Virus record (IMG/VR): IMGVR_UViG_2695420503_000024
Coordinates: 1 to 32,011 of that record
Length of the DNA stretch: 32,011 bases
Source of the DNA: a virus
Lineage: Duplodnaviria; Heunggongvirae; Uroviricota; Caudoviricetes
Direction: 5' to 3' (one strand)
Positions 7,047 to 28,861 of this stretch are shown in pieces. Made by a program: the position numbers and the translations under genes. Position 1 is the first letter of the stretch, and each line of letters begins with the position of its first letter. The notes beneath the pieces were generated by a model that was not told where the DNA came from, searched no databases, and was given only the letters and a program-made list of their open reading frames with translations.

Positions 7047-8237
7047 TTAATTGCTGTTAACCGAGGTGACCAGATTTGCCAGGTATTTATCGGTAATACG
7101 CTGTCGCAGGGTCAGGTTTTCAAGAGGAGGCACCGGTGTATAGTCGTAGTCGATATACAGTTTTCCGGCCTTGAGGGTTTCCGCATCGTTGGATTCTTCG
7201 CTGAACCAGCAGGTCGCATCCACGATATAGCCGTTTGTTTTCAGCTCACGGAATTTGGCATTGATGCCGTCAACGATGTCGCGAATCAGCGTTACAGTGA
7301 TGGGCTTGTCCACCGCCCACATGTGCGCCTCAGCCATCGTGTCGGCCAGCACCTGCGCGGTGCGGGTGTAGTTTTCAAAGAGGAACAGCGGGTCATCCGA
7401 GCAGGTACGGTTACCCCAGAAGCGGAAACCGTCACGGCGAATCAGCGTTGTGACACCTGACTCGTTCAACAGGTCAGCATCGGTGCCGGACTCCTGCAAA
7501 TCCCAGAATACAGAGGCACTGATGCCGGTAACACCGTTCACCCCGACGTTGGACAGCGTTTTATGCCAGCCCTGCTCCTGGTCGATTTTAGCGCGCAGCC
7601 CCAGCGCACGGGCGGTGGCATACGCGGTGGCGGTGGTGCTGCTGACCGTATCCCATGCGAGGAAATCCGGCCAGATGACCATCAGCTCACGCTGGCTGAA
7701 ATTCTGGCGGTAGGCTTTCACCTCGGAAATGGTTTTACAGCCCCATGCGCTGATATACCCGAAAGCGCGCAGCTTCTGACAGACTGATGCCAGTGTAACA
7801 GCCACCTCTTTGGTGTCCAGTCCCGGCACGCCGAGAATACGCGGTTTAACACCGGTTACCGATTCCGCCGCCAGCAGGGCTTTCAGTCCGGTGTACTGAC
7901 CGTTTTCGTCGGTGGTGCCGATGATATTGGAAACGGTCTGCGCGAGTTTCGTTTCTTCGTCTTCGCCGGTGCCGTCTTCCACACGGACGACAACGGTGAC
8001 CGGTTTTGACTGGTCAGCGATGGCCTGTAACGACGCCGCCAGCGTGCCTTTTTTACCGGCCTTTGCAATTGCGCTCTGCACATTGGTAATCAGCACCGGT
8101 TTATTGAGGGGGAAGATTTCCGCATCCGCATCGCTGGCCGTGCAGACCATGCCGACAATGGCGGTGGATACGGTGGAAATGACGCGGGTGCCGTCGTTAA
8201 TCTCCAGCACCTGCACGCCGTGATGATAGTCACTCAT
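7047..8237 (-). CDS. FI: Tail sheath protein gpFI (396 aa)
   Basis: Synteny and length match P2 FI. Confidence 0.88.
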   Translation of the reverse strand: MSDYHHGVQVLEINDGTRVISTVSTAIVGMVCTASDADAEIFPLNKPVLITNVQSAIAKAGKKGTLAASLQAIADQSKPVTVVVRVEDGTGEDEETKLAQTVSNIIGTTDENGQYTGLKALLAAESVTGVKPRILGVPGLDTKEVAVTLASVCQKLRAFGYISAWGCKTISEVKAYRQNFSQRELMVIWPDFLAWDTVSSTTATAYATARALGLRAKIDQEQGWHKTLSNVGVNGVTGISASVFWDLQESGTDADLLNESGVTTLIRRDGFRFWGNRTCSDDPLFLFENYTRTAQVLADTMAEAHMWAVDKPITVTLIRDIVDGINAKFRELKTNGYIVDATCWFSEESNDAETLKAGKLYIDYDYTPVPPLENLTLRQRITDKYLANLVTSVNSN

Positions 8238-8330
8238 CCGTTTAACTCCGTGGTTAATGGGTGCAACTATTTTCTGTTGGGCAGTGCATGAGACGCTATT
8301 TGACCTGGCTGGTCAGGGGATGAAACAACA

Positions 8331-8360
8331 GATAAAGAAAAGGCGGGCAATTCGCCCGCC
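8331..8360 (-). terminator. Candidate rho-independent terminator separating the variable locus from the FI operon
   Basis: Minus-strand hairpin GGCGGGC-GAATT-GCCCGCC followed by TTTTCTTTATC. Confidence 0.5.
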
Positions 8361-8366
8361 TGTCCT

Positions 8367-9493
8367 GATTTGTACTCACTCATTTTCCGACTGACAATTT
8401 ACGTAGCCCAAACGCTATCAAATATGACAGTCTGCTTTGAGCGAAAAGCGGACATTCCTGTACAAAGCATGGCGTTGGAATACAGTCAGATCATTGATTA
8501 ATAAGTGAGTCGAATCAGAACAGTAGCCAATGAAACAAAAAATTCGCAAACGTAACCAAGACTGGATATCAAGGCAATTGAAACGTGCGCAAAAGAGGAA
8601 ATGCCGTTAAGTTTCTTTATTAACTTTCCCTCAATATGAGCAACTGCTTGTAATTGTGTGCGCCTTAAACGGCATGGTCGTCTCAAGCCGGACTGGAGTC
8701 GCGCATTGTTTCATTAGGGTTGGGGAGAAGTGCCTATTGTTGGGCAAAAAGTAGTGTTTACTGGTTTGAGGGATTTGATAAGGAGCAATTGCCTGTTGAA
8801 TGGGGGGCGCTGTGGGAAGATGCCTGAATATATTGGTTTTGATTTGATCTCACAGTGCAACACACAATCAACTCTTACAGCCTGCTGTGAGCAAAAATTG
8901 CACATTTCTAACAGCCTTCCGTGTGAATCAACGGGGAGCAGGTCACTGGCACAGAGGGGACGTTTAACCCCGTCCGGCCTCCGCTGAATTGGCTGCCAAT
9001 TCCGTCCGGTCGTACCTGCCTGAGCCGTCTACTTCAGTAAAAACTGAATCAGCATAGCAAACATATATACTGTCGCTGCAATTTGTATTGTTCGCACTCC
9101 CCATCTGAGATATCGCCATTTATGACGTTCTCTGGCATCGGCTTCTTCAATGGTGGATTCAGTATGCTTTCTTCTCTTTGTCCTGAATGGATCAATTACC
9201 CATAGGGCAAGAATAAAGAGAACGATTGTTTTCTGAAGTATGGGATGATCCACGAAGAGTGACTCCGGCCTGCTCGCTGATACAATCAGAATAGATGAAC
9301 AATCCCGAAATAATCAACACTAAATGTATGGCAATTATTTATTTTCGTCCTGGCTGGACTTTGTGACCTGCTCCCAACAAATTAACATAGCACAATGTAA
9401 GCAAGTTCTGCTTTTGGCACAGAGCGGACGGTCAGATTAGGCTTTACTCTGTGCCATAGATATGTAAGCTCCCACCAGAGCTTATACAACTTA
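8367..9493. other. Variable cargo locus at the P2 Z/fun position, with no intact large ORF
   Basis: About 1.1 kb between the FI operon and the G stop; lower GC than the flanks; only short overlapping ORFs of 85 aa or less. Confidence 0.6.
9029..9253 (-). CDS. Hypothetical small protein (74 aa) with two predicted hydrophobic helices; GTG start
   Basis: N-terminal TIVLFILALWVI and C-terminal IQIAATVYMFAMLIQFLL hydrophobic segments flank a charged loop; GGAG lies ~10 nt upstream of the GTG. No ATG start, so it may not be translated. Confidence 0.25.
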   Translation of the reverse strand: MDHPILQKTIVLFILALWVIDPFRTKRRKHTESTIEEADARERHKWRYLRWGVRTIQIAATVYMFAMLIQFLLK

Positions 9494-10018
9494 TTACGGC
9501 ATTTCCGGCCATTCAGGATTTGCAGGATCCACACGGCTGACCAGAACGCTGTAGCGTTCCCATGACTCCAGTCGTGCGCGTTCCTCATCCGTCGCCATAT
9601 TCAGCCTGACAGCGCGTTCCAGTGGCTGAATAACGCTTTCCGCTTCGGAAAGTAACGCGGCCTTTTGTGATTCTGCCTGTTGTTGCTGTTCATCTGCCGT
9701 ATAAATCCGTTTAACCACAGCACCATCCTTAAACATCCATTTACCTGAGTCGTCAGCACGTCGGTTGAAGGTAATATCAGGAACCTCAACAACGCTAAAA
9801 CCTTCAGGATTAAGCGTTGAAGCATCTCTGGTGATAGCGACAATAATATTATTTTCATCGTAAACAATCTTTATTGTGTCTGGCTGAAAGTTCTTCACTT
9901 CTTCATACCAGTTTTTCCCGTCTTCAGTGTAAAGCCAGATGACTCCGTGCTTCTTTGTTAACTCATACTGTTCCAGTGTTTTAGCGTTACCCGCTTTTAT
10001 GTTCTTTAAGTGCATCAT
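9494..10018 (-). CDS. G: Tail fiber assembly protein gpG (174 aa)
   Basis: Position directly downstream of H and length match P2 gpG. Confidence 0.85.
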
Positions 10019-20866: not shown

Positions 20867-21039
20867 TGTCAGGAGTCCTGAATAGTGATTAGAGGAGTCA
20901 CATGTCGGCATCAGTTTCCCGACGATGCGCATCCTCCGCCATCAGTCCCGGATGGCTTATCACTGACACAACAGCACCTTAGCGAATCGCGGGGCGCGAC
21001 TCAGTAGCCTTGCCGTGTATTCATCACGGCGAGGTATTC
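20867..21039. promoter_or_regulatory. Divergent late promoter region (PO leftward, PP rightward)
   Basis: Intergenic gap between divergent O and P, as in P2. Contains direct repeats AGGAGTC (20871-20877, 20894-20900) and a partial TGT-N12-ATA element. Exact Ogr sites not resolved. Confidence 0.4.
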
Positions 21040-22812
21040 ATGACCATCACCACAGACACCACTCTTTTACACGACCCGCGTCGTCAGGCGGCGCTGCTGT
21101 ACTGGCAGGGGTTTTCCGTGCCGCAGATTGCCGCCATGTTGCAGATGAAACGCCCGACGGTGCAGAGCTGGAAACAGCGCGACGGCTGGGACAGCGTTGC
21201 CCCCATCAGCCGTGTCGAAATGAGCCTGGAAGCGCGGCTGACCCAGCTCATCATCAAACCGCAGAAAACCGGCGGTGACTTCAAGGAAATTGACCTGCTC
21301 GGACGCCAGATTGAACGACTGGCACGGGTCAACCGCTACAGTCAGACCGGCAACGAGGCAGACCTTAATCCGAACGTCGCTAACCGCAACAAAGGCGGGC
21401 GGCGCAAACCGAAAAAGAATTTTTTCAGTGACGAGGCCATCGAAAAGCTGGAGCAGATTTTCTTTGAGCAGTCTTTCGAATATCAGTTGCACTGGTATCG
21501 CGCCGGGCTTGAGCACCGTATCCGCGATATCCTGAAATCCCGCCAGATTGGCGCGACGTTTTATTTTTCCCGCGAGGCGCTGCTGCGCGCCCTGAAAACC
21601 GGTCATAACCAGATTTTTCTGTCGGCCAGTAAAACGCAGGCGTATGTGTTCCGCGAATACATCATCGCCTTTGCCCGGCTGGTTGACGTTGACCTGACCG
21701 GTGACCCGATTGTCCTGGGCAATAACGGCGCAAAACTGATTTTTCTCGGCACCAACTCCAACACCGCACAGAGCCATAACGGCGACCTGTACGTCGACGA
21801 GATTTTCTGGATCCCGAATTTTCAGGTACTGCGTAAGGTGGCATCAGGTATGGCCTCACAGAGCCACCTGCGCTCGACCTATTTCTCCACCCCGTCCACG
21901 CTGGCGCACGACGCCTACCCGTTCTGGTCGGGTGAACTGTTTAACCGGGGACGCGCCAGCGCCGCCGAACGCGTGGAAATCGACGTCAGTCATAACGCCC
22001 TTGCCGGTGGGCTTCTCTGTGCGGACGGCCAGTGGCGGCAGATTGTCACCATTGAGGACGCCCTGAAAGGCGGCTGCACGCTGTTCGACATTGAGCAGCT
22101 CAAACGTGAAAACAGCGCCGACGATTTTAAAAACCTGTTCATGTGTGAATTTGTTGACGACAAGGCGTCGGTGTTCCCGTTCGAGGAGCTGCAACGCTGC
22201 ATGGTCGACACGCTGGAAGAATGGGAAGACTATGCGCCGTTTGCCGCCAATCCGTTCGGCTCACGTCCGGTATGGATTGGTTACGACCCGTCACACCGTG
22301 GCGACAGCGCCGGATGCGTGGTGCTGGCACCGCCGGTGGTGGCCGGTGGCAAATTCAGAATACTTGAGCGTCACCAGTGGAAAGGCATGGACTTTGCCAC
22401 TCAGGCTGAATCCATCCGCAAACTCACCGGAAAATACAACGTCGAATACATCGGTATTGATGCCACCGGCCTCGGTGTCGGCGTGTTCCAGCTCGTGCGC
22501 TCGTTCTATCCCGCCGCACGCGACATCCGCTACACGCCGGAAATGAAAACCGCAATGGTGCTCAAGGCAAAAGACGTTATCCGCCGTGGCTGTCTGGAAT
22601 ATGACGTCAGCGCCACCGACATCACCAGCTCGTTTATGGCTATCCGCAAGACCATGACCAGCAGCGGGCGCAGCGCCACCTATGAGGCCAGCCGCAGCGA
22701 GGAAGCCAGCCACGCCGACCTCGCCTGGGCGACCATGCACGCCCTGTTAAATGAGCCACTCACCGCCGGTATCAGCACCCCGCTGACATCCACCATTCTG
22801 GAGTTTTACTGA
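21040..22812 (+). CDS. P: Terminase ATPase (large) subunit gpP (590 aa)
   Basis: ATG at 21040 with a GAGG RBS; length equals P2 gpP. Confidence 0.9.
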   Translation: MTITTDTTLLHDPRRQAALLYWQGFSVPQIAAMLQMKRPTVQSWKQRDGWDSVAPISRVEMSLEARLTQLIIKPQKTGGDFKEIDLLGRQIERLARVNRYSQTGNEADLNPNVANRNKGGRRKPKKNFFSDEAIEKLEQIFFEQSFEYQLHWYRAGLEHRIRDILKSRQIGATFYFSREALLRALKTGHNQIFLSASKTQAYVFREYIIAFARLVDVDLTGDPIVLGNNGAKLIFLGTNSNTAQSHNGDLYVDEIFWIPNFQVLRKVASGMASQSHLRSTYFSTPSTLAHDAYPFWSGELFNRGRASAAERVEIDVSHNALAGGLLCADGQWRQIVTIEDALKGGCTLFDIEQLKRENSADDFKNLFMCEFVDDKASVFPFEELQRCMVDTLEEWEDYAPFAANPFGSRPVWIGYDPSHRGDSAGCVVLAPPVVAGGKFRILERHQWKGMDFATQAESIRKLTGKYNVEYIGIDATGLGVGVFQLVRSFYPAARDIRYTPEMKTAMVLKAKDVIRRGCLEYDVSATDITSSFMAIRKTMTSSGRSATYEASRSEEASHADLAWATMHALLNEPLTAGISTPLTSTILEFY

Positions 22813-23846
22813 TGAGTAAGAAAAAAGGGAAAACACCGCAGCCAGCGGTGAAAACAATGACTGCCAGCGCCCCGAAAATGGAGGCATTCACCTTTGGCGA
22901 GCCGGTGCCGGTACTCGACCGCCGTGACATTCTGGATTACGTCGAGTGCATCAGTAACGGCAGATGGTATGAGCCACCGGTCAGCTTTACCGGCCTGGCA
23001 AAAAGTCTGCGTGCTGCCGTGCATCACAGCTCGCCGATTTACGTCAAACGCAATATTCTGGCCTCGACATTTATCCCGCATCCGTGGCTTTCCCAGCAGG
23101 ATTTCAGCCGCTTTGTGCTGGATTTTCTGGTGTTCGGTAATGCGTTTCTGGAAAAGCGTTACAGCACCACCGGTAAGGTCATCAGACTGGAAACCTCACC
23201 GGCAAAATATACCCGCCGTGGCGTGGAGGAGGATGTTTACTGGTGGGTACCGTCCTTCAACGAGCCGACAGCCTTCGCGCCCGGCTCCGTGTTTCATCTG
23301 CTGGAGCCGGATATTAATCAGGAGCTGTACGGCCTGCCGGAATATCTCAGCGCCCTTAACTCTGCCTGGCTGAATGAGTCGGCCACGCTGTTCCGCCGCA
23401 AGTATTACGAAAACGGCGCGCATGCCGGATACATCATGTACGTCACCGATGCCGTGCAGGATCGCAACGATATCGAAATGCTTCGCGAAAACATGGTGAA
23501 GTCGAAAGGCCGCAATAATTTTAAAAATCTGTTTCTCTATGCCCCACAGGGGAAAGCCGACGGCATTAAAATTATCCCGCTCAGTGAAGTGGCAACGAAG
23601 GACGATTTTTTTAATATCAAAAAAGCCAGCGCCGCTGACCTGCTGGACGCGCACCGCATCCCCTTTCAGTTGATGGGCGGCAAGCCGGAGAACGTCGGGT
23701 CGCTGGGTGATATTGAGAAAGTGGCAAAGGTCTTTGTCCGCAATGAGCTTATCCCGTTACAGGACAGGATCCGCGAGATAAACGGCTGGCTCGGTCAGGA
23801 GGTCATCCGCTTTAAAAACTACTCACTGGACACTGACAACGGCTGA
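22812..23846 (+). CDS. Q: Portal protein gpQ (344 aa)
   Basis: ATG overlaps the P stop (TGATG); length equals P2 gpQ. Confidence 0.9.
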   Translation: MSKKKGKTPQPAVKTMTASAPKMEAFTFGEPVPVLDRRDILDYVECISNGRWYEPPVSFTGLAKSLRAAVHHSSPIYVKRNILASTFIPHPWLSQQDFSRFVLDFLVFGNAFLEKRYSTTGKVIRLETSPAKYTRRGVEEDVYWWVPSFNEPTAFAPGSVFHLLEPDINQELYGLPEYLSALNSAWLNESATLFRRKYYENGAHAGYIMYVTDAVQDRNDIEMLRENMVKSKGRNNFKNLFLYAPQGKADGIKIIPLSEVATKDDFFNIKKASAADLLDAHRIPFQLMGGKPENVGSLGDIEKVAKVFVRNELIPLQDRIREINGWLGQEVIRFKNYSLDTDNG

Positions 23847-23850
23847 ACAT

Positions 23851-23873
23851 CGCCGCCTGCGGGCGGCTTTTTT
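23851..23873 (+). terminator. Rho-independent terminator after Q
   Basis: Hairpin GCCGCC-TGCG-GGCGGC followed by TTTTTT, 5 nt after the Q stop. Confidence 0.75.
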
Positions 23874-24015
23874 ACACCCCCGTCATCACGCCCTCACACG
23901 CTCACCACCGCACAAAACACCCCGCAGACACACCAACGCCCAGCAGGCCAAGTAAACGCCTTCACGACGCGCTCAGACGCTGAAAAAATAAAATCAGCAC
24001 CACCGCCAGCGCGCA

Positions 24016-24034
24016 GTGCTTTCCCCGCCTCGCC
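24016..24034. other. cos site: 19-nt cohesive-end sequence (reverse complement of GGCGAGGCGGGGAAAGCAC)
   Basis: Exact match to the recalled P2 cohesive-end sequence, at the expected position next to Q. Confidence 0.7.
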
Positions 24035-24175
24035 CGCCCGCTTCATGGGGCGGTTTTAATGCAGGTGCATCATCCCCCCGGCAAGCGCCTGTTCTGGTGC
24101 TCGCTGTCAAAAGATATATTTGAAAATGAATGCAAATTTATGCACCTAATGCAGGCGAGGCTAAAAAGAACATCT

Positions 24176-25498
24176 TTAGTTTGTTTTTTTAACTCCACTG
24201 TATTCCGCTATCATCCTCTCAACCGCTGGAAGCAACTCAGCAGGAACGCAAATAGACCTATCTGCCTTTCCAACATCTTTTGGCGTTTTGTAAGTACCAT
24301 TATAATTAAGGACGCATTCTTTAAGAATTTCAAAAAGAGAAACAATAGGGTCTACGCCATAGCTATCAATAAACTTTCGATAGCTATCATTATCAGATAA
24401 CGATGAAATATCTCCATGAACAAACTTACACCTAAGCTCATAGATTATTCCTATTTTTGAATCAATATCAATAATTTTCGCCGCATCTCTGCAAACACCG
24501 CCAATAATTGAATTTTTATTACCATTATTGGTTCCATACATAGCATCCAATGCTATAAATTGATTCAAAAACCTTTCACGTTTGTCATCCCTCCACCCGT
24601 GCGCTATAAAGGAAAGAGCAGACAACATCCTTTTATCAGGTGATGAAAGTATTTTTGTAAGTATCGCCAAGGCTGAATCCGTTATATTTAAATTATATAC
24701 AGACGGAATATTCACCCGAAACTCACTTTCATGATATTTCCCGACACCAAAAGACTCAACTAGATTATTAACAGCAACTCGATTAATCGCAAAAGGATTA
24801 TCAACCGCAAGACATAAAGCTCCAAACAAACTATCAAACATTTTCACCGCTTTATCCTCTGATGAAGCATATGCCACCACCAAGCAGGATTTTGACTGTC
24901 GAAAATATTTCCCAATTGGTTTATGCCGCATATATTCATCATCATAAAAATCAACAGGAACCTTGATGTCAGTTTTGTCTTTAATATCAGAAAGTAATTC
25001 CACCCCTAGCCCCGGGCCATATAAAAATAAATTTTCTCTAAGCTCAAGCTTCCCATCAAAGCCAGCACACCCAAGATTATAAATATACGGACAGGATTTT
25101 ATTCGTGAAAGCATATAATACTTAAACATCTCACTAAGATTTTTTCTATGAACTTGCGTTATAATATCATCAACACAAATCTTATCAGGATTAAGCGACA
25201 GAAAATCAGCATCAATGCGATTGAAGGCTTCAGAACAAAAACCTAACAATAATCTTTTCGCATTGTGAAGGTCACTTATACCTAATTGGGGGCCATATGC
25301 TTTTAATAACCTACTAGCACATTTTGCAATCTCCTCATCATCATATGCAAGCCAAAAAACAAAATCTTCTAATGCTTTACCGACTTGGATACAAGGCTGC
25401 TCCTTACCATGACTATAAAAAAAACTTTTGCATAATTTGTTTATCATGCCATTAGAGAACGCAACCTTCATAGATACTTCATCCCTTAACGCACTCAT
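24176..25498 (-). CDS. Hypothetical 440-aa protein, AT-rich cargo gene at the P2 old/tin hotspot; candidate anti-phage defense or abortive-infection protein
   Basis: Clean 1323-nt ORF with ATG and an AAGGA RBS; roughly 30-35% GC against ~60% in flanking phage genes; occupies the position of P2 orf91/tin/old; no Walker A motif, no TM segment; contains a weak HEPN-like R-x4-H (RCKFVH). Confidence 0.75.
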   Translation of the reverse strand: MSALRDEVSMKVAFSNGMINKLCKSFFYSHGKEQPCIQVGKALEDFVFWLAYDDEEIAKCASRLLKAYGPQLGISDLHNAKRLLLGFCSEAFNRIDADFLSLNPDKICVDDIITQVHRKNLSEMFKYYMLSRIKSCPYIYNLGCAGFDGKLELRENLFLYGPGLGVELLSDIKDKTDIKVPVDFYDDEYMRHKPIGKYFRQSKSCLVVAYASSEDKAVKMFDSLFGALCLAVDNPFAINRVAVNNLVESFGVGKYHESEFRVNIPSVYNLNITDSALAILTKILSSPDKRMLSALSFIAHGWRDDKRERFLNQFIALDAMYGTNNGNKNSIIGGVCRDAAKIIDIDSKIGIIYELRCKFVHGDISSLSDNDSYRKFIDSYGVDPIVSLFEILKECVLNYNGTYKTPKDVGKADRSICVPAELLPAVERMIAEYSGVKKTN

Positions 25499-25581
25499 CG
25501 ATAATAATTCCTTATAAGTTATTAATGCACGACTACTAAAGCATTGCTTCAGATTTGTTAATGTATCATGATGCCGTCAGT

Positions 25582-27849
25582 TTAAGAAAACATCACCCAA
25601 TCGTCTTTTACAGCATAACTAAACCGCTCACCGTCATAAATTACTGTTGCCCCGCGCGCCAACGCCTCAAGCTCCCATCGCTGCGGCCTGATACCGTTCT
25701 GAGCAAGGTCAACGCGGATACGGGTAATTTGCATTCTTTCCGACCGGGTCAGTCTGGCCGATGGTGCAATTTCATGTGGTTTTAACGGGCTTCCGTTTCT
25801 TTGCTGACGATTTGGCGTTCTCAGGCCGTGTTTTAATGCGCCCCTGAGCGCCCTCACAACCTCCGGGTCATTCCATTCGATAACACCGTCATCAACCAGA
25901 TTAAGCACTGCTGCGGCGTGCTCAGAAGGTGTGGGAGCCGGTAACGAAGTATCACAACCGGTGACCTTTCCACAGTTATTGACAGGACTCCGAGGCGCGG
26001 CGATGCCGCTTTTTAAAGTCAAAGGCTCAACGACCGGAACTTTCGGCACAATGCGCCAGTCCGTCGTTCTGGTGATATGAATATGACGCGCGCCGAGATG
26101 CGGCGCGTAAATGCCGACCACTCTCTCGACCTCTTCCTCGTACTCGTTAACGTCATCCGACGGGCTACGGGCGACCCTGACAGTCTGACAATCGCGCGGG
26201 ACATTTGCCCCACCCTGCGCGCTGATATACAGCGCAAAATCGCCACTGTCTGCGGCAGCGCGTGCAGCCTCGACGCGTTCGTCAAACTCATCAGCAATGC
26301 TGACGCCGCGAGGCAATTTGCGTAGTTCACGGTAAGCCCCCATTGTCGGCAGGCCAACCGTTTTAAATTGCGGAATGCGCCACGTTGACGCCCATGCGGT
26401 AACAGCCGCGGCAGTGTCTTTCAGCGGCCTGCCGGTATCGTTATCGAGCTGACCATCCAGTGCATAGCCGTCGATGTTTTTTGAAATGTATTTCGCGATA
26501 TATCCCGCAGCACCGCCCCGGTTAAGGTGTTTTGCCTGAAAACGGTTTCGCGCAGCTCCTCTTTCGTCTCCATCCTCTTTGAGCGCGTAGCGACGCATGA
26601 TTTCGATAATCTGGTTACGCTGGCGTGGATTACAAAAAAGCATCATATGCCAGTGCGGCGTTCCGTCGTGGTGTGGCTCGACGACACGCAAACCGTAGAC
26701 CTGTAAATCATTATCCTTGAATGCCGTGCGCATCAGGCTCCAGATGCGGCAGAGATAACGCTGCGCATCCTTTGGATTAAATGCCTCATCGTTCCAGCCG
26801 TGATTAAGCTGAACGGTTTTACTTTCGCCTTTTCTGACCTGACGTGTCGGGTGATACTTTGACGGCGCGGTCAGCGTGATAAACATCCCCACATCACCCT
26901 CTGCGGCGGCGTAACGCTCAATACCGGCAATGGTGTTCATCAGCTCCATCCGGCGAATTTCAGGATTAGAAATACTGCCCATCACCTTACTGATAAGGTC
27001 GATACGCTCGCCGGTTTCCCTGTTTTCAAGGTCACACGATTTAAGAAATTCCAGATTTGCCTGGCGGCGCGCACGCACATCACGAATGGCGTGTTTACTG
27101 GCATAAGGAGAACGGTCTTTATTGACCTCCCCGACAGCTATCAGTAACGCTTCATGCCAGCGCATACGCTGGCCTTTAAGCTGATGAGTCCACCACTCAT
27201 CGTTAAACAGACGGGCAATGGCAGAATATGCCTGCCTCGTGGTCATCTGCCCTTTACGGTATTTTTTCCAGTAGAGCGGGGAAATATTGAAAGCACGTGC
27301 AGCGCCAGCAACATGACCATAGAGGTGAGCCTGCGCCTCATCCGTAAACAGCGATTCTTTTTCGCCATGCGCATCCACCCAGGCATCGCTGAGTTCCTCA
27401 TACATCATGAAAAGCTGCGATGAGATACGGGCAGCAAACTTTTTCAGCTCCTTGTCATTCATTCCCGGCAGGCGCGCATAGTGGTCACGCTCTGCCAGAA
27501 ATAGTAACGACGCGTCGGTGTTCATTTCATGGCGCTGATTCACACGCTCAATGCGCGGCCATAAACGACGCTGAAAAGTGGATGTGAGGAAATAAAACCC
27601 GTGCACCGGGCTTTTATTGCGCCGGATGTAGTCATAGCGTGAAGTAAACAGCGAGCGCAAAAAGTAAGGCAGGCGGTTAATCGTGGATAAAACACCTTGC
27701 ACCTGACGCATCTCGTCACGTGTAAGGGGTCTTTCGCGCCCGACGGCCTCGCGTGGCGAGTTCCATGCATAAGCACCGGTAAACGCCTTACCGGTGCCTG
27801 CAGCAAATGCTGACGGAGGGACAAAACGCCCGGAGGCTTTAACGGCCAT
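25582..27849 (-). CDS. A: Replication initiation protein gpA (rolling-circle endonuclease), ~755 aa
   Basis: Strong match to recalled P2 A; first ATG at 27849 (MAVKASGRF...). The ORF-track start at 27891 is TTG, so the true start carries some uncertainty. Confidence 0.85.
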   Translation of the reverse strand: MAVKASGRFVPPSAFAAGTGKAFTGAYAWNSPREAVGRERPLTRDEMRQVQGVLSTINRLPYFLRSLFTSRYDYIRRNKSPVHGFYFLTSTFQRRLWPRIERVNQRHEMNTDASLLFLAERDHYARLPGMNDKELKKFAARISSQLFMMYEELSDAWVDAHGEKESLFTDEAQAHLYGHVAGAARAFNISPLYWKKYRKGQMTTRQAYSAIARLFNDEWWTHQLKGQRMRWHEALLIAVGEVNKDRSPYASKHAIRDVRARRQANLEFLKSCDLENRETGERIDLISKVMGSISNPEIRRMELMNTIAGIERYAAAEGDVGMFITLTAPSKYHPTRQVRKGESKTVQLNHGWNDEAFNPKDAQRYLCRIWSLMRTAFKDNDLQVYGLRVVEPHHDGTPHWHMMLFCNPRQRNQIIEIMRRYALKEDGDERGAARNRFQAKHLNRGGAAGYIAKYISKNIDGYALDGQLDNDTGRPLKDTAAAVTAWASTWRIPQFKTVGLPTMGAYRELRKLPRGVSIADEFDERVEAARAAADSGDFALYISAQGGANVPRDCQTVRVARSPSDDVNEYEEEVERVVGIYAPHLGARHIHITRTTDWRIVPKVPVVEPLTLKSGIAAPRSPVNNCGKVTGCDTSLPAPTPSEHAAAVLNLVDDGVIEWNDPEVVRALRGALKHGLRTPNRQQRNGSPLKPHEIAPSARLTRSERMQITRIRVDLAQNGIRPQRWELEALARGATVIYDGERFSYAVKDDWVMFS

Positions 27850-28114
27850 ATGAGCCAAAAGCCTCTGAACAACGCCTGCTGAGTTGCTCAACCTGCGCGT
27901 TTAAATCAGCAAAAGACTTTGCGCTTCCGGTCAGAATATCGTGATGCATCAGGCCGGAAACGAGCTGGCTTAATTTCGGGTAATAACCAACCACTGCAAG
28001 CCATTCCTGACCGGCGTTTTTACCGCTTTCCGCTCTCTTTTTCTCGTGGAGAATAAACTGAAAGCTGTCACTGGTAACGACATAACGTTCGCCAATTTCA
28101 ATACGAATACTCAT
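27839..28114 (-). CDS. Hypothetical protein at the P2 orf83 position (91 aa)
   Basis: ATG verified; start overlaps the upstream stop (ATGA) and its own stop sits 5 nt before the A start. Confidence 0.65.
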   Translation of the reverse strand: MSIRIEIGERYVVTSDSFQFILHEKKRAESGKNAGQEWLAVVGYYPKLSQLVSGLMHHDILTGSAKSFADLNAQVEQLSRRCSEAFGSYGR

Positions 28115-28335
28115 GCCGTTCTCCGGTAATGTTTGTTTTTTGCTTCAAAGACTGACTGGCAGGAAACACAACGCGTAGCTGACGGATAAGCCGCACGACG
28201 GGCAGCAGGTATTGGCGCGTCACACTCTTCGCAAACCAGCGCAGAAGCACCGCAATGTTTTACCCTTGCCGCGTTAATCTGACGCTCCAGTAATTCAGCC
28301 TGTTGTTCCTGAATAAAATCTACGTTGTCCGGCAT
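28111..28335 (-). CDS. TraR/DksA-family C4 zinc-finger protein at the P2 orf82 position (74 aa)
   Basis: C-x2-C...C-x2-C (CEEC...CVSC) with a TraR-like layout. Confidence 0.75.
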   Translation of the reverse strand: MPDNVDFIQEQQAELLERQINAARVKHCGASALVCEECDAPIPAARRAAYPSATRCVSCQSVFEAKNKHYRRTA

Positions 28336-28637
28336 TACCAGCTCCTTTTGTCGTTAAGTTTTTTAAATTCATCAGCGCAATAGCTGGCAATTTCTGTCGT
28401 TAATTTCGTCAGTTCATCCACGGAGGAGATTTGCTTGTGAAATACAGCGCGTTTAACAAGTAAATTGACCACATCAGACAGGAGATTTAATTCGTTCTGA
28501 TAAATCGCGATAACAGACTCAGTTATTTCGCGTTTTTCTTTATCAAGACCAAGTTGAATAAGAGATAAATCGCCATTTTTCATAACGGTGATTTTTAAGG
28601 CGTTATTCAGTAATACAACTGAACGAGAACAGGACAT
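28335..28637 (-). CDS. Hypothetical AT-rich protein at the P2 orf81 position (~100 aa)
   Basis: ATG at 28637 with a strong GGGGAGGTG RBS; about 35% GC, well below the neighbours. Confidence 0.6.
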   Translation of the reverse strand: MSCSRSVVLLNNALKITVMKNGDLSLIQLGLDKEKREITESVIAIYQNELNLLSDVVNLLVKRAVFHKQISSVDELTKLTTEIASYCADEFKKLNDKRSW

Positions 28638-28861
28638 CAAAGCACCTCCCCGCGAGACAATCCGATATTGTGAAATTTTTCCGACTCCTGACTGAGCAGC
28701 TCGACTATCTCTACGCGGGATAACTCCGCCTTTGTGATGTGGCGAATTATGGCGTCAAGATGAGAAGAAAAGCGCGTCGCTGCGTCGGCCTGTGCTTCGG
28801 TTCTGGCCTGTTGCAGCAGTAATGCGTATTTACCGCACTGATTTTCAGAAACTGTATGCAT
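28637..28861 (-). CDS. Hypothetical protein at the P2 orf80 position (74 aa)
   Basis: ATG at 28861 with a GGAG RBS. The upstream TTG extension was rejected. Confidence 0.6.

What the first reader, a model, noticed from the sequence alone, without database searches (positions are those of the whole stretch)
24176..25498. Single AT-rich 440-aa gene replaces old/tin at the P2 cos–A hotspot: candidate undescribed anti-phage protein
Seen in sequence: between the cos site (24016-24034) and the replication gene A, P2 carries orf91, tin and old. Here the whole slot holds one clean 1323-nt ORF on the minus strand with its own RBS. Its base composition is roughly 30-35% GC by eye, against ~60% for flanking phage genes, which marks it as horizontally acquired cargo. 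The protein has no Walker A motif, so it is not an Old-type ATPase, and no TM segment. It contains R-x4-H (ELRCKFVHGD), compatible with but far from proof of a HEPN-type RNase fold. Established knowledge: this interval in P2-like prophages is a recognised hotspot for diverse anti-phage systems. Inference: this is a single-gene defense or abortive-infection protein of a family I cannot name.
Basis: partly seen in the sequence, partly recalled or inferred. Interest (0 to 1): 0.85.

Follow-up and report, generated by a model that had tools for sequence, protein, structure and literature searches.

The report
Untested HEPN RNase gene in P2 hotspot

Summary
One 1323-nt minus-strand ORF (24176-25498) fills the slot between P2 cos (24016-34) and replication gene A. 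Its GC is 35.8%, against 53% for the rest of the window.

Homologs sit alone in the same slot in Enterobacter and Citrobacter, in another P2 slot in Serratia, and in defence-like islands in Vibrio, Pseudoalteromonas and Idiomarina.

It is not undescribed. NCBI calls it "HEPN domain-containing protein", and Rousset et al. 2022 Table S5A lists near-identical WP_032190067 at this hotspot as "HEPN_Apea". I found no experimental test.

Kinship to ApeA, a ~600-aa tRNA-cleaving HEPN defence protein, is weak: hhalign E 3.6e-4 and 3.3e-3 on two co-linear segments, no PADLOC, Pfam or Foldseek hit, and a different size.

Best reading: a compact sensor-plus-HEPN defence RNase, a new variant of a known kind. 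Interest is moderate.

The parts
24176..25498 (-). CDS of 440 aa (49.5 kDa, pI 6.7): the candidate HEPN defence protein, the only gene in the slot
   Evidence: ORF listing. PGAP annotates the same CDS in near-identical E. coli loci. The exact protein is in public collections. Intact homologs at 44-72% identity occur in eight other genera.
24644..25498 (-). N-terminal region, residues 1-285: a helical subdomain (about 1-132) and an alpha/beta subdomain (about 136-260). Proposed sensor or regulatory part.
24296..24643 (-). C-terminal HEPN domain, about residues 286-401
24416..24433 (-). Codons for R356-C-K-F-V-H361, the R-x4-H catalytic dyad
   Evidence: Read directly from the sequence. R356 and H361 are the only invariant columns in 113 sequences sharing 12-39% identity with the window protein.
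24563..24580 (-). Codons for R307-E-R-F-L-N312, an invariant block that continues into F-I-A-L-D318 in the first HEPN helices
   Evidence: Invariant in 22 homologs. D318 is at least 90% conserved in 113 sequences. The segment aligns with ApeA 'LEQKLLNLWIALESLF' in hhalign.
25509..25513 (-). Shine-Dalgarno-like AAGGA, 10 nt upstream of the ATG
25499..25581 (-). 83-nt spacer between the stop of gene A and the start codon. It has no sigma-70 consensus match, so the gene may be read through from A or use a weak promoter.
   Evidence: The promoter scan found nothing in this spacer. The spacer is partly conserved with the Enterobacter and Citrobacter loci.
24016..24034 (-). P2 cos cohesive-end sequence, the left landmark of the hotspot
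   Evidence: Exact single match, none in 100 shuffles. The same 19-mer lies beside the P4 hotspot in constructs from Rousset 2022.
24071..25581 (.). Variable cargo slot: a 36% GC island between the conserved P2 backbone and gene A
   Evidence: Backbone homology ends at about 24070. Other phages carry different cargo here.
25582..27891 (-). Replication endonuclease gene A (flank, not part of the cargo)
   Evidence: Phage_GPA Pfam family in homologous loci.
22812..23846 (+). Portal gene Q (flank, not part of the cargo)

Best explanation
The gene is prophage cargo that encodes a self-contained sensor-effector RNase.

Shown by computation:
- The C-terminal ~115 residues form a HEPN domain.
- Its R356-x4-H361 dyad is under extreme conservation.
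- The gene sits alone in the P2 cos-A accessory slot.
- Its relatives move between accessory slots of P2-like prophages and defence-like islands.

Inferred from established HEPN biology (HepT, ApeA, HepS, DARNA, Csm6):
- Two protomers pair their HEPN domains to form one composite active site.
- The enzyme is held inactive in the lysogen.
- The ~285-residue N-terminal region senses a cue of infection by a competing phage and releases the RNase.

Inferred by analogy only:
- The substrate is most likely tRNA anticodon loops, or otherwise phage or host mRNA.
- Cleavage stops translation and aborts the infection, protecting the lysogen population and the resident prophage.

For: Catalytic dyad: R356 and H361 are the only invariant columns in 113 relatives sharing 12-39% identity with the window protein. 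R356 is invariant and H361 is present in 21 of 22 close homologs.

Foreign cargo: GC 35.8% against 53%, in the slot where P2 carries old and tin and where many validated defence systems lie (PMC9519451).

Autonomy: it is the sole gene between A and the portal gene in E. coli, Enterobacter and Citrobacter prophages. No tandem repeats or known ncRNA lie beside it.

Mobility into accessory and defence contexts:
- the gene V/S slot of a Serratia P2-like prophage;
- a Vibrio island next to CBASS and a RES-domain protein;
- a Pseudoalteromonas integrase island with Schlafen/AlbA_2 and DEAD/ResIII proteins;
- an Idiomarina IS-rich region with McrB-N, NOV_C and DUF6119 proteins.

Modular evolution: most of the 233 distant relatives share only the HEPN region and differ in the N-terminal part, as expected for a variable sensor on a fixed effector.

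Precedents: single-gene HEPN defence proteins ApeA, HepS and DARNA all cleave tRNA anticodon loops after activation.
Against: No phenotype exists for this protein or any family member that I could find.

PADLOC has no model that matches it. That is weak evidence, because the ApeA protein Thr1ApeA also fails PADLOC.

No sigma-70-like promoter was found in the 83-nt upstream spacer, so expression in the lysogen is unproven.

One family member has Y in place of H361.

The Shewanella homolog lies among housekeeping genes with no defence neighbours.

Confidence: 0.6

Rival explanations
1. It is a true but highly diverged, compact member of the ApeA family. [quoted passage not shown]
For: Rousset 2022 labelled near-identical WP_032190067 'HEPN_Apea'.

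The overall layout is the same: one gene, a large N-terminal region and a C-terminal HEPN.

hhalign of the 113-sequence profile against an ApeA profile gives two co-linear segments, E 3.6e-4 for the first HEPN helices and E 3.3e-3 for the catalytic helix.

The ApeA HMM gives a cloud of marginal hits within the superfamily.

A 467-aa 'minimal' ApeA, Bm1ApeA, has no BLAST similarity to Ec1ApeA yet still protects. Relatives of Bm1ApeA share our compact spacing between the two HEPN motifs.

Negative Pfam and PADLOC results are uninformative, because Ec1ApeA and Thr1ApeA also fail them.
Against: hhalign probability is only 37%. The close-family profile (A1) against ApeA is not significant. The profile against a Bm1ApeA relative gives E 0.016.

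ApeA is about 590 aa, mostly helical, and has about 130 residues between the two HEPN motifs. Ours is 440 aa, has nine strands in the N-terminal part and 38 residues between the motifs.

Weak Pfam signals across the superfamily split between HEPN_RiboL-PSP (3 members), HEPN_Apea (1) and HEPN_AbiU2 (1).
Confidence: 0.2
2. It is a toxin or addiction-type HEPN RNase, or an RNase that serves the prophage's own biology such as stabilising lysogeny or host takeover. Under this reading any phage exclusion is incidental or absent.
For: The best structural matches are HEPN toxins of HepT/MNT toxin-antitoxin pairs.

The slot also holds non-defence cargo such as partition systems and cdt toxins.
Against: There is no adjacent antitoxin-sized gene, MNT gene or repeat-type RNA antitoxin in the slot. 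None is present in the Enterobacter or Citrobacter loci.

The gene is found without any prophage in several genera, so it does not serve a P2-specific function.
Confidence: 0.12
3. It is a non-catalytic or decaying passenger gene. The HEPN fold would then act only as a binding or scaffold module, or the gene would be drifting.
For: Some HEPN domains, such as the kanamycin nucleotidyltransferase type and sacsin, are not known RNases. No promoter was detected.
Against: The reading frame is intact across genera at 44-72% identity. R and H are invariant over a very divergent superfamily. The identical protein occurs on 603 contigs.
Confidence: 0.05

Closest known systems
ApeA (Gao et al. 2020; Juozapaitis et al. 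2026, bioRxiv 10.64898/2026.01.26.701840; Drobysheva et al. 2026, bioRxiv 10.64898/2026.03.20.713152)
   Same: Both are single-gene systems with a large N-terminal non-catalytic region and a C-terminal HEPN carrying R-x4-H. There is weak, co-linear profile similarity in the HEPN helices. Both occur on mobile elements. The likely logic, sensing by the N-terminal region that gates an RNase, is the same.
Bm1ApeA-type 'minimal ApeA' (467 aa; Drobysheva et al. 2026)
   Same: Similar size. Its relatives share the compact HEPN with both motifs in the same register. It is a solo gene reported to protect against DNA phages.
   Different: There is no significant sequence similarity: BLASTP is not significant, hhalign gives E 0.016 and the HMM finds nothing. 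Only ~60%-identical relatives of Bm1ApeA from Agrobacterium could be compared.
HepS (Gifsy-1 prophage of Salmonella; Nature 2026, PMC13043305)
   Same: A prophage-encoded, single-protein HEPN abortive-infection anticodon nuclease placed in an accessory slot next to replication genes.
   Different: HepS is a standalone HEPN of under 250 aa with R100-H105 and no large extra domain. Ours has a ~285-aa N-terminal region.
DARNA / PD-T7-3 (bioRxiv 10.64898/2026.02.22.705581)
   Same: A single-gene HEPN tRNA anticodon nuclease of about 456 aa with a large non-catalytic domain. It was found in the E. coli pangenome screen, in which seven of the 21 systems lay in P2-like prophages.
   Different: The domain order is opposite: in DARNA the HEPN is N-terminal (R117-H122) and the other domain is a Pds5-like C-terminal domain. 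There is no PADLOC hit to it.
RnlA / LsoA HEPN toxins
   Different: All the matches are weak. RnlA and LsoA come with an adjacent antitoxin gene (RnlB/LsoB), and none is present here.
P2 Old, Tin and orf91 (the cargo of reference P2 in this slot)
   Same: Same genomic slot and the same presumed role, exclusion of competing phages.
   Different: No sequence relationship: tblastn against all phage records found nothing and there is no PADLOC hit. The protein has no ATPase motif.

Membership tests
HEPN superfamily | Four-helix up-down bundle fold of the HEPN domain | tested here: met
HEPN superfamily | Conserved R-x(4-6)-H motif | tested here: met
   RCKFVH at 356-361. R356 and H361 are the only invariant columns in 113 sequences.
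HEPN superfamily | Dimerisation that forms a composite active site, and metal-independent RNase activity | not testable with these tools
   No multimer prediction or biochemistry is available here.
ApeA defence system | Single-gene system with a long N-terminal region followed by a C-terminal HEPN | tested here: met
   Sole gene in the slot. The HEPN is at about 286-401 of 440 residues.
ApeA defence system | Match to the family models (PADLOC PDLC02157 ApeA; Pfam PF18739 HEPN_Apea) | tested here: not met
   No hit at E <= 1 in either library. Of 113 superfamily members, one hits HEPN_Apea at E 0.018 and none hits PADLOC ApeA. Caveat: Ec1ApeA gets no Pfam hit and Thr1ApeA gets no PADLOC hit, so these models miss true members.
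ApeA defence system | Detectable homology to ApeA profiles | tested here: inconclusive
   hhalign A2 against A4: E 3.6e-4, probability 37%, plus a second co-linear segment at E 3.3e-3. A1 against A4 is not significant. The ApeA HMM's best hit in the superfamily has E 0.0018 in a database of about 230 sequences.
ApeA defence system | Three-domain, mostly helical monomer of about 540-620 aa with a split HEPN carrying large insertions | tested here: not met
   Ours is 440 aa, has nine beta strands in residues 1-260 and has 38 residues between FIALD318 and R356. ApeA has 132 residues between E389 and R521 and is described as predominantly helical.
ApeA defence system | Structural similarity to the solved ApeA structures (9hxn, 9hxi, 9hxj, 9hxm) | tested here: inconclusive
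ApeA defence system | Ring-shaped decamer or dodecamer and an activating ligand pocket between the N-terminal and HEPN domains | not testable with these tools
   Needs a multimer model or an experiment.
P2 hotspot anti-phage cargo (Rousset 2022; Vassallo 2022) | Located between cos/portal gene Q and replication gene A of a P2-like prophage, with variable content between relatives | tested here: met
   WP_032190067 is listed at this locus in Table S5A.
P2 hotspot anti-phage cargo (Rousset 2022; Vassallo 2022) | Demonstrated protection against phage | not testable with these tools
   No report was found. The tested construct pFR103 'Putative HEPN' is a different protein.
HEPN/MNT, RnlAB or type III (AbiF-like) toxin-antitoxin | An adjacent cognate antitoxin gene or repeat-encoded RNA antitoxin | tested here: not met
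   There is no second gene in the slot, no tandem repeats and no Rfam family.
Old-type (ABC ATPase + TOPRIM) nucleases | Walker A ATPase motif; homology to Old | tested here: not met
   No Walker A, no PADLOC hit and no tblastn hit in phage records.

The most novel reading that the evidence does not exclude
The protein founds a distinct, unnamed family of compact sensor-HEPN defence RNases. The family has about 26 close clusters in Gammaproteobacteria and at least 233 distant representative clusters. Its N-terminal TBP-like and helical-bundle region would recognise an infection cue by a mechanism different from ApeA's dinucleotide or RNA pocket, HepS's tail-tip sensing and DARNA's ssDNA sensing. 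That would add a new trigger-sensor pair to the set of HEPN anticodon nucleases, one that is carried and swapped between P2-like prophage slots and defence islands.
Probability: 0.35. Interest if true: 0.6.

Novelty: new variant of a known kind. Interest (0 to 1): 0.45.

Why it matters
Single-protein HEPN RNases (ApeA, HepS, DARNA) have recently become models for how one polypeptide both senses infection and kills translation. Each turned out to use a different trigger.

This protein is a clean further candidate. It is small and autonomous. It occurs on 603 public contigs and in 46 of 5,426 complete E. coli genomes, including ST131 strains. It sits in a hotspot with a high validation rate, and current defence-finding models (PADLOC 2.0) miss it.

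Its N-terminal region has no strong structural relative, so identifying what it senses could reveal a new activation mechanism.

The practical value is modest. It would add a model to defence-annotation tools and one more competition factor of P2-like prophages. It does not open a new category.

Tried and rejected
1. Family libraries. Pfam, NCBIfam and PADLOC scans of the protein gave no usable hits; the only Pfam matches were noise (Rap1, TRI9). PHROGs returned only phrog_23812, of unknown function.

2. Phage and structure databases. tblastn against 50,697 phage genomes found nothing. The family profile against PDB sequences found nothing at E <= 10.

3. pFR103. I asked whether the 'Putative HEPN' P2-hotspot construct tested by Rousset et al. 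is this protein. It is a different sequence.

4. DARNA/PD-T7-3 and HepS. Rejected on architecture: DARNA has an N-terminal HEPN, and HepS is a standalone HEPN of under 250 aa.

5. Bridging to ApeA through Bm1ApeA. Only the first 133 residues were available from the preprint supplement, and they hit nothing locally. I then retrieved ~60%-identical full-length relatives from Agrobacterium. BLASTP, hhalign and HMM comparisons with our family, and with canonical ApeA, were all weak, so no bridge was established.

6. Whole-chain Foldseek against the PDB gave no significant match. The afdb50 library was unavailable.

8. Partner elements. I found no tandem repeats, no Rfam family, no meaningful direct or inverted repeats and no sigma-70 consensus in the upstream spacer.

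9. The antisense 113-aa ORF at 24059-24400 (+) lies largely inside the CDS and has no support. I set it aside without testing.

Full report
**1. The observation**

The window carries most of a P2-like prophage. The terminase gene (21010-22812, +) and the portal gene Q (22812-23846, +) are followed by the exact 19-nt P2 cos sequence at 24016-24034, a single match that appeared in none of 100 shuffles. Replication gene A lies at 25582-27891 on the minus strand.

Megablast of 22812-24175 against phage genomes aligns to P2-like phages only up to about window position 24070. The variable interval is therefore about 24071-25581.

That interval holds one long ORF, 24176-25498 (-), 440 aa, starting with ATG, with AAGGA 10 nt upstream. 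ORF GC is 35.8% and GC3 is 28.3%. The rest of the window is 53.2%, and gene A, the portal gene and the terminase gene are 53.5-57.6%.

There is no Walker A motif, no predicted membrane segment, and a single R-x4-H (RCKFVH, 356-361).

Other P2-like phages carry unrelated cargo in the same slot: a hypothetical gene plus an exoribonuclease in phage 899, and cdtABC in another.

**2. What the protein is**

Curated libraries are silent. Pfam, NCBIfam and PADLOC gave nothing meaningful. PHROGs returned only phrog_23812, of unknown function.

A word-indexed search found 26 clusters of full-length homologs at 44-99% identity. They come from Escherichia, Citrobacter, Enterobacter, Serratia, Vibrio, Shewanella, Pseudoalteromonas and Idiomarina.

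Their alignment has an invariant block R307-E-R-F-L-N312, followed by F-I-A-L-D318. R356 is invariant and H361 is present in 21 of 22 sequences.

An exhaustive profile search of 1.84 billion representative proteins gave 233 hits at E <= 1e-3:
- About ten align nearly full length.
- About a dozen align from roughly position 195 onwards.
- Most are proteins of 400-440 aa that share only the last ~110 positions.

In an alignment of 113 of these sequences, which share 12-39% identity with the window protein, the only invariant columns are R356 and H361.

Each aligns over about 90-100 residues. Residues ~286-401 are a HEPN domain whose catalytic dyad is under very strong selection.

**3. The N-terminal region**

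Residues 1-285 contain helices and nine strands. Modelled alone, the region reaches pLDDT 84.

- TATA-binding proteins, about 76 residues aligned at rmsd 2.6 Å. This matches the alpha/beta subdomain.
- TetR-family C-terminal ligand-binding bundles, about 95 residues aligned. This matches the helical subdomain.

Across the superfamily this region is the least conserved part. That fits a variable sensor attached to a fixed effector.

**4. Genomic behaviour of the family**

| Host | Identity | Context |
|---|---|---|
| E. coli | ~99% | Sole gene between A and the portal gene |
| Enterobacter | 62% | Sole gene between A and the portal gene of a P2-like prophage |
| Citrobacter | 64% | Same slot, sole gene |
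| Serratia | 53% | P2-like prophage, but between baseplate gene V and the tail-completion genes |
| Vibrio | 49% | Between a 222-aa unknown and an HNH_5 protein; in one genome beside a RES-domain protein and CBASS (SAVED + DncV-like), in two others beside a small integrase |
| Pseudoalteromonas | 50% | Integrase island with Schlafen/AlbA_2, DEAD/ResIII and Ymh-family proteins |
| Idiomarina | 49% | IS21-rich region with McrB-N, NOV_C and DUF6119 proteins |
| Shewanella | 49% | Isolated insertion among housekeeping genes |

The gene is therefore autonomous and mobile. It tends to land where accessory and defence genes accumulate.

No second gene, tandem repeat, Rfam family or meaningful repeat accompanies it in the window. 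That argues against a toxin-antitoxin layout.

The 83-nt spacer upstream has no sigma-70 consensus match, although it is partly conserved with the Enterobacter and Citrobacter loci. Expression in the lysogen is unproven.

**5. Prior knowledge about this exact protein**

In RefSeq, 46 of 5,426 complete E. coli genomes carry the whole slot at 98-99% identity. PGAP names the product 'HEPN domain-containing protein' (WP_032190067.1 in strain 463).

The identical sequence occurs on 603 contigs. Its 90%-identity cluster has 398 member sequences from E. coli, Salmonella enterica and E. albertii.

Rousset et al. 2022 defined this hotspot: 18,150 occurrences and 1,650 arrangements in E. coli. Their Table S5A lists WP_032190067 as a single-gene arrangement labelled 'HEPN_Apea'. 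Their tested construct pFR103 'Putative HEPN' is a different protein.

Vassallo et al. 2022 also place four newly validated systems in this slot.

I found no paper that tests this protein. The searchable library excludes much subscription literature. It also does not index supplements, except for papers I opened.

**6. Relation to ApeA and other HEPN defence proteins**

What is known about ApeA:
- It is a validated single-gene HEPN system from Gao et al. 2020.
- Two 2026 preprints characterise it.
- Proteins of ~590 aa have an N-terminal domain, a Mid domain and a split HEPN.
- Most of the solved homologs assemble as rings of ten or twelve subunits; Thr1ApeA is a dimer.
- A pocket binds 5'-phosphorylated deoxydinucleotides in Ec2ApeA, or probably an RNA structure in Ec1ApeA.
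- It cleaves tRNA anticodon loops or ssRNA phage genomes.

To test membership I recovered full-length Ec1ApeA, Thr1ApeA and relatives.

Controls showed that the curated models miss true members. Ec1ApeA has no Pfam hit, and Thr1ApeA has no PADLOC hit.

Profile-profile comparison of the 113-sequence superfamily with ApeA gives two co-linear local alignments:
- Our 'RERFLNxFIALDALFG' pairs with ApeA 'LEQKLLNLWIALESLF' (E 3.6e-4, probability 37%).
- Our 'IYxLRxxxVHG' pairs with ApeA 'RIYxxRNKxxH' (E 3.3e-3).
- An insertion of about 100 residues, specific to ApeA, separates the two.

The profile of close homologs alone is not significant against ApeA.

The 467-aa 'minimal' Bm1ApeA protects against DNA phages although it has no BLAST similarity to Ec1ApeA. 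I compared it through Agrobacterium relatives at about 60% identity. The HEPN motifs align in register with ours, but only weakly (E 0.016). These relatives are equally weakly related to canonical ApeA (E 0.035). HMM searches link none of the three groups.

Size, secondary-structure content and motif spacing all differ from ApeA.

Weak Pfam signals across the superfamily split between HEPN_RiboL-PSP, HEPN_Apea and HEPN_AbiU2.

My conclusions on classification:
- HEPN superfamily membership is secure.
- 'Apea-like' is a plausible but unproven subfamily label.
- Membership of the ApeA defence family as currently characterised is not established.
- DARNA/PD-T7-3 has the reverse domain order.
- HepS is a bare HEPN of under 250 aa.
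- Old and Tin are unrelated.

**7. Mechanism proposed**

Shown by computation: a HEPN domain with a conserved catalytic dyad, solo-gene autonomy, and hotspot or island placement.

Inferred from HEPN biology: HEPN domains dimerise to form a composite site, the enzyme is auto-inhibited in the lysogen, and the N-terminal region activates it on infection by a competing phage.

Inferred by analogy with ApeA, HepS, DARNA, PrrC and RloC: cleavage of tRNA anticodon loops, or of mRNA or phage RNA, stops translation. Most likely this is abortive infection.

My confidence at each level:
- about 0.9 that it is a HEPN-domain protein;
- about 0.6-0.65 that it is an anti-phage defence gene acting through that domain;
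- about 0.35-0.4 that tRNA is the target.

**8. Verdict**

The claim of novelty is overstated. The protein is already annotated as a HEPN protein and catalogued at this hotspot, and it belongs to a well-known kind of system, the single-gene HEPN defence RNase on a prophage.

Three things remain open and testable:
- whether it protects at all;
- what its uncharacterised N-terminal region senses;
- whether it is a compact branch of ApeA or a family of its own.

I rate it a new variant of a known kind, of moderate interest (0.45).

Noticed in passing
window 8238-9493: About 1.25 kb of 45% GC sequence lies between the tail-sheath gene (7047-8237) and the tail-fibre assembly gene (9494-10018). This is the position of the second P2 defence hotspot (Z/fun) described by Vassallo et al. 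2022. It contains no ORF longer than 85 aa. Only 6 of 5,426 complete E. coli genomes share the whole stretch, and PGAP annotates only 'tail fiber assembly protein' under it. It may be a decayed cargo remnant, a small-gene or ncRNA locus, or a tail-fibre cassette relic.
   Followed up: partly
L010 7079-10521; L011 7042-10484; L012 349-3791 (Vibrio): In all three Vibrio places the HEPN homolog is flanked by the same 222-aa protein with no Pfam family (upstream) and the same 374-aa HNH_5 protein (downstream). In two of them a 198-aa integrase follows. This may be a three-gene cassette or a small mobile element. The two partners are absent from the P2-borne copies.
   Followed up: no
L017 7001-9145 (Serratia P2-like prophage): The 53%-identical homolog sits between baseplate gene V and the tail-completion genes, next to a 246-aa protein with no Pfam family on the opposite strand. 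The same cargo gene therefore uses a different insertion slot in P2-like phages.
   Followed up: no
window 25499-25581, aligned with L013 7925-8000 and L015 5924-6000: The spacer between gene A and the HEPN gene is partly conserved across the E. coli, Enterobacter and Citrobacter loci, although the proteins share only 62-64% identity. Examples are 'CATG.TA.ATTA.CAAA...GAAG' and 'ATCGATG'. It could hold a shared regulatory element or a recombination boundary for cargo swapping.
   Followed up: partly
window 25471-25498: Many homologs start at the position equivalent to M10 (MKVAF...) rather than M1. The true start codon could therefore be the ATG at 25469-25471, which would give a 431-aa product.
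   Followed up: no
window 28335-28640: There is a local GC dip to about 37% over a 101-aa ORF. PGAP calls the equivalent gene a DUF5405 family protein in near-identical loci. It lies within the early operon upstream of gene A.
   Followed up: no
controls: P0176 (Ec1ApeA), P0177 (Thr1ApeA): Canonical Ec1ApeA gets no Pfam-A hit at E <= 0.01, not even HEPN_Apea. Thr1ApeA, whose structure has been solved, gets no PADLOC ApeA hit. Current profile libraries therefore under-detect the ApeA family, and negative results from them should not be read as non-membership.
   Followed up: yes
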